Source of the DNA: Saccostrea cucullata
Taxonomy: Eukaryota
DNA length: 62,759 nucleotides
Assembly (NCBI RefSeq): GCF_032062105.1
Contig: NW_026940866.1
Span: 62,001-124,759 of the forward strand
Reading direction: 5' to 3'
Shown here in pieces: positions 6,420 through 14,312 of the stretch. Under the pieces are notes generated by a model. The model searched no databases. It was given only the letters and a program-made list of their open reading frames with translations, and had not been told where the DNA came from. The translations under genes and the position numbers were made by a program. The first letter of the stretch is position 1; every line of letters begins with the position of its first letter.

Positions 6420-7526
6420 TAGAGTTGGGTATTGCGAAGGAAATCCATATTGCGATATATTGCAATATTTTACTTTGAATATTGCAATATATTGCAATAT
6501 ATTGTAGATTAATTATCATTAATAAATTTGAGCAGAATGTTTGAAATGCTGTCAAGTTCAAAGACTATTTGAATTTATCTTTAAGTTTAAAAGCGAGAGG
6601 AGGGATAAGACATTAATTGCACACCAAATTAACACTTTACTTTTAATCAAATTCCAGGTAAAATAGTAAAACAAGATGAACTCTCTTGGAGAATTATCAC
6701 ATTGAAATAATTTTTTCACAGATTATGTCTTTTTTCATTGAATTCTTTTTTTTTTGAGGGGGGGGGGGGTAATGAAGTAGCATAAAATGTTATTAAAGAT
6801 TAAAACAATATACATATTAGGCCTATATGAAAATAATTTTATTGTGGTTACAAAATAAAATTTAAAAACCAGAAAGAAATTGTGACCTGTTTTCGTGCGT
6901 TTTGGCAATTTAGTCTAACCCGACCTAATTTCACATCAAGACGTACAATCAGGAAATGGCCTGTTTTAATATATACATGCTCCTGCTATATCATAAGGTG
7001 TTTAAAATGGCATGAAAGTTATTAAAAATAATTAAAACAACACTGCTACAAGTGAAAACATGGATGACCATTTACTTTTAATATGTACATGTATATTGAA
7101 CTTGACATTTCACCGCGATGTCGATCGTGTAGATTCAATGTGAGATTTTGAGAACCGCAATGCATATGGTATACACCCTGTAAAAATGTTTTATATATTT
7201 TCTTCCTTTTAAATTTTATTTGAAAGTCTTATTAATTAGTAATTTTATTTCAAAGTAAGATATTCAAAACTGCAACAGTGAATTAAAAGCTTCCACCCCT
7301 CTCTCTTTCTCTCTCCCGAACGAAACTGACGAAGAATTCTTTCAACGAGAAAGAAAAAGACTTAGAACTTTCCAGTTTTATTTTAACAGTTTCTACAATA
7401 AAGGAGGTTTATATATATTTTTATAAATATCGTGAAATACCGGTATCTGATTTTCATATCGCGATATATTATCGTGGTGGATAATACCGCAATATACCGA
7501 TATACCGGTAATATTGCACACCCCTA
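6420..7526 (-). mobile_element. 1.1-kb non-autonomous hAT element, copy 1
   Basis: Near-identical reverse complement of 9280-10388; termini TAGGGGTGTGCAATAT / TAGAGTTGGGTATTGC. Its flanks AAAGTTAT and TTGTTCCA do not match each other but match the copy 3 flanks in reverse. Confidence 0.92.
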
Positions 7527-7597
7527 TTGTTCCATGTACATTTTAAAAATTTCTTTGACGAGTAAAACAATATGCGTTTCTTTTTTTGTTTAGTATA
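7527..7597 (-). mobile_element. Displaced 5' end (TIR) of the Tc1-like element at 14313-15113
   Basis: 7571-7597 TATGCGTTTCTTTTTTTGTTTAGTATA matches 15087-15113 at 26/27 nt, in direct rather than inverted orientation. Confidence 0.75.
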
Positions 7598-7815
7598 TTA
7601 TCTAAGAAATCAATATAATTGTACAGAATGACAATAATGTAATTTTGCTTCAGTCATACAGTCATAGCTGAAGTAAAGTTCTATCGCAAATATGAACATC
7701 AGAAGATTATAAATGTTCTTTTTCCCTCTTCTTTAAAAAATTAATTACAATTTTGCAATAGCAAAAAAAAATCTGACATCAAAATTGCAGCTCATATTGC
7801 TTTAATAAATCTTAC

Positions 7816-7984
7816 TTTCGCAGTTGGAATCACTTCTATTGTAGCTGAAATGAGCGTCTTTCAGTTCCTCATAATAACACATCTGCTTAGACTGCGGTCT
7901 TTTAGAAAGGTAGCCTGCGCCATACACTGTATCTGTGTAAAATAAACCGAGTATAAACGTGACTAGTAAGACCCGTGATGCCAT
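7816..7984 (-). CDS. Nacrein-like alpha-carbonic anhydrase, exon 1 (signal peptide); inverted relative to exons 2-11
   Basis: MASRVLLVTFILGLFYTDTVYG-AGYLSKRPQSKQMCYYEELKDAHFSYNRSDSNCE: hydrophobic signal peptide, HFSY motif at the start of the alpha-CA domain, phase-1 donor A|GTAAGA that matches the phase-1 acceptor at 20494. Confidence 0.85.
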
Positions 7985-8018
7985 GCCAGCGGAATAAAGA
8001 AACAACCTAAATCCCCTC

Positions 8019-8026
8019 CTTTTATA
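8019..8026 (-). promoter_or_regulatory. TATA box of the carbonic anhydrase gene
   Basis: TATAAAAG on the minus strand, 35-42 nt upstream of the exon 1 ATG. Confidence 0.6.
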
Positions 8027-10745: not shown

Positions 10746-11202
10746 TGATACATCACATGTATTCAGATGTTTAAAATTTTAATTTCAATCAATAATATAA
10801 TATATATGCATAATATAGCTGTTTATGGAATTTGAAAATTAAAGCACATTTTGTTGCTTTTTTAAAAAATCAAAACTGCTTTCACGTATCCTGTTCCATA
10901 TCCTTTGATGTGTAAAAAAAAACCCCATTGGGCAATCTTAATATTTATGTAACAATTTTAAAAGAAATCCCCTGAGAATTTAGCGTGTGTCACGTCCTTT
11001 GTTGAACAAAATAGTTTGATGTGTATATTTGAACCCTGAAATGTGCAAGTGCAAGGAACGCCCCACATATAGTAATTTTGTTTCGATAATAACAAACGGT
11101 TTTCTCTTCAATATTCTTTCAGTTAAACTTAAATATTTAATCACGCAATATAGAATCTGTATTAAAATCTTTCGTTTATTGAATCTTTTCAAATATATTA
11201 TT

Positions 11203-12367
11203 TTTAGCTCTACTGGTCAGAGACCAGAAGAGCTTATGCGATAGTAATGCGTCCGTCGTCCGTCCGTCTGTCTGTCTGTCAACAATTTTTCAAAATGCTA
11301 CTCCTCCTACAGTTTTGATCCGATTTCAATATAACCTGGCACACAAGTAGACTACACCAAGATACATAATTTTGTGCATCGGTTTATGATTTCGATGAAT
11401 GGTGTTGCCGTGGTTACTAAAAATAGAAATTTCTCTGAAATTCTTTCGAAATGCTACTCCTCCCACAGTTTTTGTCCAATTTCAATATGACTTGGCACAC
11501 AAGTAGACTACACTAAGATACATAATTCTGTGCATGGGTTTTTGATTTCGATTAACGGTGTTGCCGTGGTTACTAAAAATAGAAATTTCTGTGAAATTCT
11601 TTCTAAATGCTACTACTCCTACAGTTTTGGTCTAATTTCAATATAACTTGGCACACAAGTAGACTACACTAAGATACATAATTCTGTGCATTGGTTTTCG
11701 CTTTCGATGAACGGTGTTGCCATGGTTACTAAAAATAGAAATTTCTGAGAAATTCTTTTAAAATGCTACTCCTCCTACAGTTTTGGTCCGATTACAATAT
11801 AATTTGGCACACAAGTAGACTATACTAAGATACATAATTCTGTGCATCGGTTTTTAGCTCTACTGGTCAGAGACCAGAAGAGCTTATGCAATAGTAAGGT
11901 GTCTGTCGTCCGTCCGTCTGTCTGTCTGTCTGTAAACAATTTTTCAAAATGCTACTCCTCCTACAGTTTTGGTCCGATTTCAATGTAACTTGGCACACAA
12001 GTAGACTACACTAAGACACATAATTCTGTGCATCGGTTTTTGATTTCAATGAATGGTGTTGCCGTGGTTACTAAAAATAGAATTTTCTGTGAAATTCCTT
12101 TAAAACACTACTCCTTCTACAGTTTTGGTCTGATTTCAATTTAACTTGGCACACAAGTAGACTACACTAAGATACATTAAATAGTGCATCGGTTTTTGAT
12201 TTTGATGAATGATGTTGCCATTAGTACTAAAAATAGAAATGTCCGTGAAATTCCTTTAAAACATCACTCCTTCTACAGTTTTGGTCTGATTGCAATGGCT
12301 TCTTTTCTTAGCCTTTGTTATAAGTACAAACCAGTAGAGCTACAGTCTCGACAGAGACTTCTGGTTT
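11203..12367 (+). mobile_element. Non-autonomous Helentron-type element with ~156-bp internal repeats and a duplicated head
   Basis: subTIR AGCTCTACTGG / CCAGTAGAGCT, GTCC/GTCT microsatellite, about seven AAATGCTACTCCTCCTACAGTTTTG units, 3' hairpin AGTCTCGACAGAGACT; head repeated at 11851. Confidence 0.85.
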
Positions 12368-13089
12368 AAGGATTTTGATACGTATGTAATCAATTCAATT
12401 GTGAAATGGTTCATATCGTTAGTCCCAATTATTATGATAATTAGAGCCCATGTAACCCCGGGATTTTTCTAAGATTTATGATCTTATTTGTTGAAACCGT
12501 TGCCAAGTAGTTTGGATTCTAAATTGTTAAGATATTGTTAGCAATATGAAGCGATTAATAAGTTGTAAATTATGCACTTAAATATTTAAAATAAATATGA
12601 AGAGGAAGATGGATATGTAACAAATATTTTGATATATGCATATCCCTAGTTAGAATAATCTAACTGTGTCTCGAGAAAAGCCCTCACCACAGTTAGAATA
12701 CCTCCTATATACTCGCAGTGTAGCAAAAAATTGCAGAGTCGCTCCGAAACGATTTTGAAGTATACAAAATAATTTGCAATAAAAATTACTTTCAAATTAA
12801 TTGTTACAAACCTTTTTGAGGTTGCTTTAATATGTATTTAAACCCAAAATATAATCCAAAGAAAGACGAAAATTCAACTAATTTTCTCAACGTTTTTTCT
12901 CGCTTCAAAATTACACTATTTACGTTCGGAATTCTCTGGATTGTTCGTAATGAATGCATTGAGTACTAATTATCGCTCGTGTTTATTTTGCTACATTGTG
13001 AATACATGGAACGAATTCTATCGTTAAATTGGGTCCGTAGAACATTTCTCATTTTAACAATGGAACATTATATCTAGCATATCCAATGT

Positions 13090-13191
13090 TTTTTATGCTC
13101 CCGTAAACAAAGTTTCCGGGGTATTTAGTTTTTGCCCTGTCCGTCCGTCTGTCTGTTTGTCCGTAGAAACATTAACCTTGCCCATAACTTT
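13090..13191 (+). mobile_element. Displaced terminus of the Helentron-type element at 4219-6419
   Basis: Reverse complement reads AAAGTTATGGGCAAGGTTAATGTTTCTACGGACAAACAGACAGACGGACGGACAGGGCAAAA..GGGAGCATAAAAA, the expected continuation after 6419 (compare the ends at 40357-40400 and 51770-51840). Confidence 0.75.
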
Positions 13192-14312
13192 TAGGGGTGT
13201 GCAATATTACCGGTATATCGGTATATTGCGGTATTATCCACCACGATAATATATCGCGATATGAAAATCAGATACCGGTATTTCACGATATTTATAAAAA
13301 TATATATAAACCTCCTTTATTGTAGAAACTGTTAAAATAAAACTGGAAACTTCTAAGTCTTTTTCTTTCTCGTTGAAAGAATTCTTCGTCAGTTTCGTTC
13401 GGGAGAGAGAGGAGAGAGAGAGGGGGTGGACATGGTGGAAGCTTTTAATTCACTGTTGCAGTTTTGAATATCTTACTTTGAAATAAAATTACTAATCAAT
13501 AAGACTTTCAAATAAAATTTATAAGGAAGAAAATATATAAAACATTTTTACAGGGTGTATACCATATGCATTGCGGTTCTCAAAATCTCACATTGAATCT
13601 ACACGATCGACATCGCGGTGAAATGTCAAGTTCAATATACATGTACATATTAAAAGTAAATGGTCATCCATGTTTTCACTTGTAGCAGTGTTGTTTTAAT
13701 TATTTTTAATAACTTTCATGCCATTTTAAACACCTTATGCTATAGCAGGAGCATGTATATATTAAAACAGGCCATTTCCTGATTGTACGTCTTGATGTGA
13801 AATTAGGTCGGGTTAGACTAAATTGCCAAAACGCACGAAAACAGGTCACAATTTCTTTCTGGTTTTTTAAATTTTATTTTGTAACCACAATAAAATTATT
13901 TTCATATAGGCCTAATATGTATATTGTTTTAATCTTTAATAACATTTTATGCTACTTCATTACCCCCCCCCCCCCTCAAAAAAAAAGAATTCAATGAAAA
14001 AAGACATAATCTGTGAAAAAATTATTTCAATGTGATAATTCTCCAAGAGAGTTCATCTTGTTTTACTATTTTACCTGGAATTTGATTAAAAGTAAAGTGT
14101 TAATTTGGTGTGCAATTAATGTCTTATCCCTCCTCTCGCTTTTAAACTTAAAGATAAATTCAAATAGTCTTTGAACTTGACAGCATTTCAAACATTCTGC
14201 TCAAATTTATTAATGATAATTAATCTACAATATATTGCAATATATTGCAATATTCAAAGTAAAATATTGCAATATATCGCAATATGGATTTCCTTCGCAA
14301 TACCCAACTCTA
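13192..14312 (+). mobile_element. 1.1-kb non-autonomous hAT element, copy 3
   Basis: Near-identical to copy 2 apart from a short GA/GGTGGA insertion and a few substitutions in the 5' third; flanks ATAACTTT and TGGAAGAA. Confidence 0.92.

What the first reader, a model, noticed from the sequence alone, without database searches (positions are those of the whole stretch)
6420..14312. Three-copy repeat geometry makes a potentially multi-state, reversible switch
Seen: copy 1 is inverted relative to both copy 2 (9280-10388) and copy 3, and copies 2 and 3 are direct. Inference: 1x3 recombination restores the ancestral gene; 1x2 recombination flips only 7527-9279, also reconnecting exon 1 but with about 1.3 kb of native upstream DNA and the rest moved into intron 1; 2x3 recombination deletes about 3.9 kb of upstream region. 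One locus could therefore toggle between off, on and on-with-short-promoter states, resembling an invertible-promoter switch but built from MITEs. No dedicated recombinase is evident.
Basis: inference. Interest (0 to 1): 0.7.

Follow-up and report, generated by a model that had tools for sequence, protein, structure and literature searches.

The report
Transposon inversion flips oyster shell-gene exon
In one assembled chromosome copy of a rock oyster, three near-identical copies of a small jumping gene surround the start of a likely shell-building enzyme gene and the DNA between two of them is flipped, which would switch that allele off; this is likely a one-off accident of a known kind, and nothing found shows that it toggles as a switch.

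Summary
The geometry is right: three 98-99.7% identical 1.1-kb copies, copy 1 inverted to copies 2 and 3. They are a non-autonomous hAT transposon (8-bp target duplications; a 665-aa transposase element with the same first 40 bases lies elsewhere). Copies 1 and 3 have swapped target duplications, and 7527-13191 is inverted against a second haplotig that lacks all three copies. The flip turns exon 1 of an otherwise intact 463-aa nacrein-like carbonic anhydrase away from exons 2-11. Recombination permits four reversible and two deleted arrangements, but the switch is unsupported: the repeats are private to one haplotig, only one arrangement of it was seen, both 'on' states share the same 2.4 kb upstream, and no run held this haplotype. 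Likely a one-off ectopic-recombination inversion like Drosophila Galileo or human F8 intron 1; transposase-driven inversion or misassembly are not excluded. No look-alike in earlier scan notes.

The parts
6420..7526 (-). Copy 1 of a 1.1-kb non-autonomous hAT element; left breakpoint of the inversion
   Evidence: flanks do not duplicate each other (7 of 8 mismatches) but pair with the flanks of copy 3
6412..6419 (+). Target 8-mer of the upstream insertion site (AAAGTTAT); its partner is 13184-13191 on the other strand
   Evidence: 8 of 8 match to the reverse complement of 13184-13191; C9035 runs through this site without an insertion
7527..7596 (-). First 70 bp of an ~870-bp host repeat into which the intron-1 copy inserted; begins with the intron-site target 8-mer
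   Evidence: 3 of 3 fetched copies of the host family (L045-L047) join 7527-7598 directly to 14313-15113
7527..13191 (-). 5.7-kb segment inverted relative to the other haplotig
   Evidence: C9035 aligns to 7596-13192 on one strand and to 5842-6417 and 15111-20078 on the other
7816..7984 (-). Coding exon 1 of the nacrein-like carbonic anhydrase (56 codons, hydrophobic N-terminus, GT donor, phase 1), pointing away from exon 2
   Evidence: 84% identical to residues 1-56 of P0002; 5 of 169 bases differ from the C9035 allele
7985..9279 (-). 1295 bp of native upstream DNA (TATA-like TATAAAAG about 40 bp before the ATG); identical in both predicted 'on' arrangements
   Evidence: promoter role inferred
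9280..10388 (+). Copy 2, with its own perfect 8-bp target duplication (CCCGTGTC); a passenger inside the inversion
   Evidence: site empty in C9035
10389..13191 (.). Segment Y, former far-upstream DNA; includes a 156-bp tandem element (about 11201-12365) absent from C9035
13192..14312 (+). Copy 3; right breakpoint of the inversion
14313..15113 (+). Rest of the host repeat; starts with TGGAAGAA, 7 of 8 matching the 8-mer beside copy 1
20494..27905 (+). Exons 2-11 of the nacrein-like alpha-carbonic anhydrase (20494-20658, 21132-21316, 21967-22059, 24034-24156, 24448-24561, 24738-24824, 24991-25108, 26982-27208, 27443-27520, 27873-27905)
   Evidence: (PF00194), 22, 25, 26: in frame with exon 1, no internal stop, 463 aa, 75% identical to P0002, QLHVH / GSEH / PMEAHMV motifs present

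Best explanation
Three local copies of a non-autonomous hAT transposon sit around exon 1 of a nacrein-like carbonic anhydrase gene on one haplotig, and a likely one-off crossover between the two outer, oppositely oriented copies inverted 5.7 kb, which would silence that allele. Shown: the copies are hAT-type, share private variants, have swapped target duplications, and the segment is inverted against a haplotig that lacks them. Inferred: the copies arose by local hopping with a transposase supplied in trans; the crossover used host homologous recombination, possibly between element positions 319 and 535; the allele is null; back-flips and the other arrangements are possible only as rare mutations, not as a regulated switch.
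For: hAT identity: 25 of 27 other fetched copies have perfect 8-bp duplications, the 2 others being end-truncated; a 3164-bp element at G000:C12276:465929-469092 has the same first 40 of 40 and last 36 of 40 bases and a stop-free three-exon 665-aa frame with zf-BED and hAT dimerisation domains. Local origin: the three copies share 6 substitutions and a 3-bp deletion seen in 0 of 27 other copies; 2-10 differences among them against 22 or more to any other. Inversion: swapped 8-mers; the host repeat is split across 7527 and 14313; C9035 is collinear in the non-inverted order with all sites empty; a contig of run X1 also bridges the intron-1 site in that order (record 2, L039 2988-3244). Crossover: 5' sites group copy 1 with copy 2, 3' sites group copy 3 with copy 2, so the rebuilt intron copy equals copy 2 outside homopolymers. 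Exchanged duplications plus non-identical, chimeric copies are the published test for ectopic recombination (PMC2775673, passages).
Against: The chimera signal is weak: a perfect split of 4-5 against 2 sites has P about 0.10-0.13, and the two 3' sites are private to copy 1, one a homopolymer indel. No read spanning a copy on this haplotype was available (best run held 0.30 of the words), so a misassembly is not excluded. No expression evidence: 4 of 4 RNA runs laid had no cover on exons 2-4. Exons 2-11 of the other haplotype were not found, so their phase to this inversion rests on the assembly alone. 'One-off' is a default from one inverted and one empty haplotig, not a population result.
Confidence: 0.6

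Rival explanations
1. [quoted passage not shown]
For: Gives the same swapped duplications (PMC2775673, passages). A cognate, apparently intact transposase exists in two nested copies 99.7-99.9% identical. Copies 1 and 2 share derived states at element positions 159 and 318 that copy 3 and 27 of 27 other copies lack, which fits copy 2 being a daughter of copy 1. The mismatch in the intron-site 8-mer shows some time has passed.
Against: The model predicts identical breakpoint copies at birth; copies 1 and 3 are the least alike pair (4 clean substitutions plus indels), and all copy 3 versus copy 2 differences outside homopolymers crowd into the first 318 of 1109 bases, as a crossover would leave them.
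Confidence: 0.2
2. Assembly artefact: the real haplotype carries three insertions but is not inverted; the assembler or polisher crossed between the inverted 1.1-kb copies.
For: A mis-join through the repeats gives the same swapped duplications and mosaic copies; all four flank junctions are the same in both orientations, so short reads cannot tell them apart. The assembly is fragmented (23,869 contigs). Exons 1-11 show no decay.
Against: The contig is 124,759 bp and the window has no N, which suggests reads much longer than 1.1 kb (inference); the three copies keep distinct variants rather than being collapsed.
Confidence: 0.13
3. One reading: the locus toggles recurrently or somatically among off, on and short-promoter states with an effect on shell formation.
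For: Four reversible arrangements are geometrically allowed and identity is 98-99.7% over 1.1 kb with spacers under 6 kb. Homologous-recombination flip/flop without a known recombinase exists in Ogataea (PMC5720833, passages); toggling between inverted repeats is documented in humans (bioRxiv 10.1101/2021.12.20.472354, passages).
Against: The repeats are absent from the other haplotig and the intron-1 site is empty in a contig of run X1; only one arrangement was seen; the copies are not homogenised; the two 'on' states share 2.4 kb upstream; deletion and excision are one-way exits; measured human toggling is 3.4e-6 to 2.7e-4 per locus per generation for much larger repeats, a mutation rate rather than a switching rate; transposase acting on such clusters gave many deletions and composite insertions in maize (PMC8225341, Discussion part 1).
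Confidence: 0.05

Closest known systems
Galileo-generated inversions of Drosophila buzzatii (2z3; Delprat et al. 2009, PMC2775673; passages read)
   Same: Two oppositely oriented DNA-transposon copies at the breakpoints, exchanged target duplications, empty sites in non-inverted chromosomes, same ambiguity with hybrid element insertion.
   Different: Here hAT, 5.7 kb rather than a cytologically visible inversion, a breakpoint inside intron 1 of a gene, a third copy inside, and only suggestive chimerism (6-7 sites against 53).
Human F8 intron 1 (int1h-1/int1h-2) and intron 22 (int22h-1, -2, -3) inversions (PMC7507428; passages read)
   Same: One repeat in an intron and inverted partner(s) outside; recombination turns the 5' part of the gene away; the intron 22 case has a three-copy geometry. 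The ~1-kb size of int1h is recalled, not read.
   Different: F8 repeats are fixed in the species and the inversions are shown to be recurrent; here the repeats are transposon insertions seen on one haplotig and recurrence is untested.
Maize Ac/fAc alternative transposition at p1/p2 (Sharma et al. 2021, PMC8225341; abstract and Discussion part 1 read)
   Same: Closely linked hAT ends near a gene; rearrangements that change promoter context; transposase in trans.
   Different: Reversed-ends transposition loses the DNA between the elements; nothing is lost here and each of the three sites keeps a duplication.
Flip/flop mating-type switching of Ogataea polymorpha (PMC5720833; passages read)
   Different: There the 2-kb repeats are identical, a standing part of the chromosome, induced by nitrogen starvation through a regulatory pathway, and both states are functional; none of this was found here.
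Nacrein-like alpha-carbonic anhydrases of oysters (P0002 Saccostrea echinata, P0003 Ostrea edulis, P0004)
   Same: PF00194 domain split by an acidic insert; 75% identity to P0002 over the whole length.
   Different: Exon 1 is inverted in this assembly; the public model for this locus (P0001, 228 aa) uses an unrelated first exon at 1238-1354 and stops after exon 5.

Membership tests
Non-autonomous hAT DNA transposon | 8-bp target site duplication | tested here: met
   26 of 30 fetched copies perfect; the 4 others are copies 1 and 3 (swapped) and two end-truncated copies
Non-autonomous hAT DNA transposon | Short terminal inverted repeats with subterminal repeats, no coding frame | tested here: met
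   Imperfect ends TAGGGGTGTG / TAGAGTTGGG, 10-bp subterminal array, longest frame 96 aa without homology claimed
Non-autonomous hAT DNA transposon | Ends shared with a transposase-coding hAT element | tested here: met
   40 of 40 and 36 of 40 terminal bases; zf-BED and Dimer_Tnp_hAT; 665 aa without stop
Non-autonomous hAT DNA transposon | Present mobility | not testable with these tools
   99.7-99.9% identical nested autonomous copies suggest recent activity; expression and transposition not measured
TE-mediated inversion by ectopic recombination | Oppositely oriented copies at both breakpoints | tested here: met
TE-mediated inversion by ectopic recombination | Exchanged target duplications, single target in the non-inverted allele | tested here: met
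   (8 of 8 and 7 of 8)
TE-mediated inversion by ectopic recombination | Reciprocally chimeric breakpoint copies | tested here: inconclusive
   Pattern fits a crossover at 319-535 but P about 0.10-0.13
TE-mediated inversion by ectopic recombination | Orientation confirmed by molecules | not testable with these tools
   No run held half of the haplotype's words; no long reads listed
Programmed invertible switch (phase variation, flip/flop) | Repeats are a standing feature of the locus | tested here: not met
   All three sites empty in C9035; intron-1 site bridged without insertion in run X1; only these two comparisons were available
Programmed invertible switch (phase variation, flip/flop) | Both orientations of the same repeat-bearing allele observed | not testable with these tools
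   One arrangement in the assembly; exon-1 search found only C23003 and C9035
Programmed invertible switch (phase variation, flip/flop) | Dedicated recombinase or inducing pathway | tested here: inconclusive
   13 window frames scanned: only a DIRS-type retroelement integrase 40 kb away and an unrelated hAT element; induction not testable
Programmed invertible switch (phase variation, flip/flop) | States differ in expression or phenotype | not testable with these tools
   No RNA cover on exons 2-4 in 4 of 4 runs

The most novel reading that the evidence does not exclude
A self-built, transposon-made toggle on a shell gene: three local hops of one hAT element created a six-arrangement system whose flips recur often enough, in an animal that sheds millions of gametes (fecundity recalled), to put on, off and deleted alleles into every brood or mantle, with the cognate transposase raising the rate.
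Probability: 0.06. Interest if true: 0.7.

Novelty: new member of a known kind. Interest (0 to 1): 0.3.

Why it matters
As it stands it is a clean, base-resolved example of a small hAT-mediated inversion that would knock out one allele of a likely biomineralisation enzyme in a bivalve, invisible to short reads because every junction is the same in both orientations, and the cause of a wrong public gene model. It offers a cheap four-primer or long-read assay for the rate of recombination between 1.1-kb inverted repeats in an oyster. If flips were frequent it would be an animal example of a transposon-built toggle on a shell trait; nothing here shows that.

Tried and rejected
DNA contigs of X1, X5, X9, X15 on the empty allele: dominated by repeat families; only one listed piece (X1) bridged a site, none of the listed pieces bridged the other two. 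RNA of X21-X23 and X7 on exons 2-4: no cover, so the exon 1-2 splice and expression were not seen; this is no evidence of silence. A suspected frameshift at the end of exon 7 was a misreading; the frame is intact. The hAT element ending at window 2375 was considered as the partner enzyme and rejected: different termini, no match to the element's ends. Reversed-ends transposition rejected: no DNA lost between copies. Of 30 hAT loci scanned for shared ends, one (L090) matched the 3' end at 92% over 85 bases; L081 and L091 are weaker relatives. Literature: searches (10 listings; 2 listings; 0) showed no report of this allele; others (0; 2) were for comparators; only open-access full text was searched and no supplements were read. 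Earlier scan notes: 8 of 53 shown were other elements, none by sequence.
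Full report
Observation. Self-comparison shows three copies of one 1.1-kb sequence at 6420-7526 (minus), 9280-10388 (plus) and 13192-14312 (plus), 98.0-99.7% identical.

What the repeat is. It is a dispersed family (493 first-look candidates, 40 scored, 30 fetched). Of the 30, 26 have a perfect 8-bp target duplication; two are end-truncated and two are copies 1 and 3. Ends are short and imperfect with a 10-bp subterminal array, and there is no long frame. A scan of 30 hAT-domain loci found one carrying the same 3' end; fetched whole, G000:C12276:465929-469092 is a 3164-bp element with an 8-bp duplication, 40 of 40 and 36 of 40 terminal bases shared with the repeat, and a three-exon, stop-free 665-aa frame with zf-BED and hAT dimerisation domains; it is nested in a second copy 99.7-99.9% identical. 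So the repeat is a non-autonomous hAT element with a likely enzyme in trans; 'MITE' is a loose label. The three window copies share six substitutions and a 3-bp deletion found in 0 of 27 other copies and differ from each other by 2-10 positions against 22 or more to any other copy. Three random insertions within 8 kb are expected about 0.003 times per genome. Local hopping, described for Tol2 and Ac/Ds (PMC3878927, passages), is the likely origin.

The inversion. Copy 2 has its own duplication. The 8-mer left of copy 1 is the reverse complement of the one left of copy 3 (8 of 8), and the 8-mer right of copy 1 is the reverse complement of the one right of copy 3 (7 of 8). Three checks agree. 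First, 7527-7596 and 14313-15113 are two parts of one ~870-bp host repeat that is continuous in 3 of 3 fetched family copies. Second, contig G000:C9035, about 84-92% identical over these segments and read here as the other haplotig, runs 5842-6417, then 13192 down to 7596, then 15111-20078, with all three sites empty and without the host repeat. Third, a contig of public run X1 bridges the intron-1 site in that same order (record 2). The non-inverted, empty state is therefore the older one.

The gene. Exons at 20494-27905 encode an alpha-carbonic anhydrase (PF00194) named nacrein-like in Saccostrea, Ostrea and Mytilus records. Its first exon, 84% identical to residues 1-56 of P0002, lies at 7984-7816 on the minus strand. 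Read in gene order, the 11 exons give 463 codons with no internal stop, canonical splice ends and 75% identity to P0002. Exon 1 in C9035 is intact and differs at 5 of 169 bases. The public model of the locus (P0001, 228 aa) borrows a first exon at 1238-1354 and ends early, as expected if the true exon 1 cannot be joined. A role in shell formation is inferred from the family name. That the inverted allele is silent is inferred; 4 of 4 RNA runs laid gave no cover on exons 2-4, and exons 2-11 of the other haplotype were not found, C9035 ending about 400 bp before exon 2.

Mechanism. Exchanged duplications arise from ectopic recombination between two insertions or from hybrid element insertion; the published discriminator is chimeric versus identical breakpoint copies (PMC2775673, passages). 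Here element positions 159, about 217-240, 293 and 318 group copy 1 with copy 2, while 536 and 659 group copy 3 with copy 2. Undoing a crossover at 319-535 makes the intron copy equal to copy 2 outside homopolymers. That favours recombination, but a perfect split of so few sites has P about 0.10-0.13 and the two 3' sites are private to copy 1. I put ectopic recombination at 0.6, the transposase route at 0.2, and misassembly at 0.13: a mis-join through the repeats leaves the same marks, every flank junction is identical in both orientations, and no listed run holds this haplotype (best share 0.30).

The switch. Enumerating all recombinations gives four mutually reachable three-copy arrangements (two with exon 1 facing exon 2, two not) and two deleted ones that can still flip between themselves. 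Real flip/flop by host recombination without a known recombinase exists in Ogataea, with identical 2-kb repeats and induction by starvation (PMC5720833, passages). Here the repeats are private to one of two haplotigs, not homogenised, and removable by deletion or excision. Toggling in humans runs at 3.4e-6 to 2.7e-4 per locus per generation for much larger repeats (bioRxiv 10.1101/2021.12.20.472354, passages); F8 intron 1 and intron 22 inversions are the direct gene-breaking analogues, the latter with three copies (PMC7507428, passages). If the cognate transposase acts on this cluster, the facing ends of copies 2 and 3 resemble the maize reversed-ends substrate, whose products were often deletions and composite insertions (PMC8225341, abstract and Discussion part 1), that is, exits rather than toggles.

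Verdict. A real and tidy feature of the assembly, best read as a transposon-mediated, allele-breaking inversion of a known kind. No report of this allele appeared in the searches (open-access full text only; supplements not read), nor in earlier scan notes. Reversibility is a geometric possibility shared by every such inversion, not evidence of a switch. Interest 0.3; the bold reading has probability about 0.06 and would deserve 0.7.

Noticed in passing
window 1-2375 (G000:C23003:59863-64375, minus): A 4.5-kb hAT element with an 8-bp duplication (AAATGCAT), absent from C9035, whose 1063-aa open frame carries an OTU-like domain (PF02338) and a zinc finger ahead of the transposase domain; a stop at window 1462-1464 separates it from a 61-aa upstream frame.
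   Followed up: partly
G000:C12276:465271-471604 (L094, L095): Autonomous-type hAT element inserted into the first exon of a 99.7-99.9% identical copy of itself, both with perfect 8-bp duplications: a very recent self-insertion, another likely local hop.
   Followed up: partly
window 7527-7596 and 14313-15113: ~870-bp host repeat with ~26-bp terminal inverted repeats and TA-like ends (likely Tc1/mariner-type, non-coding), 40 scored copies at 85-100%; absent from C9035.
   Followed up: partly
window 53958-59049: DIRS-type retroelement: gag-like frame, RT/RNase H and a tyrosine-recombinase-like frame, with split 100% identical direct repeats (53958-54120/58694-58856, 58562-58693/58918-59049).
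   Followed up: no
window 1238-1354: The public model P0001 takes its first exon from the antisense strand of the hAT element: an annotation error caused by the inverted true exon 1.
   Followed up: yes
window 37950-38942 (+): Single 330-aa frame with no Pfam hit at E 0.01; its serine/threonine-rich beta-strand pattern recalls an aerolysin/ETX-type pore-forming fold (resemblance recalled, not tested).
   Followed up: no
window 44801-46111 and 60100-62281: A C2H2 zinc-finger frame and an AKAP17A-like gene (PF25015).
   Followed up: no
window 2988-3763, 11284-12297, 17706-18990, 25364-26730: Elements with 156-167-bp internal tandem arrays, typical of oyster Helentron-like repeats (label recalled); several differ in presence between the two haplotigs.
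   Followed up: no
G000:C2747:1533857-1578359: A tandem cluster of at least four nacrein-like paralogues elsewhere in the genome, which could buffer loss of this allele.
   Followed up: no
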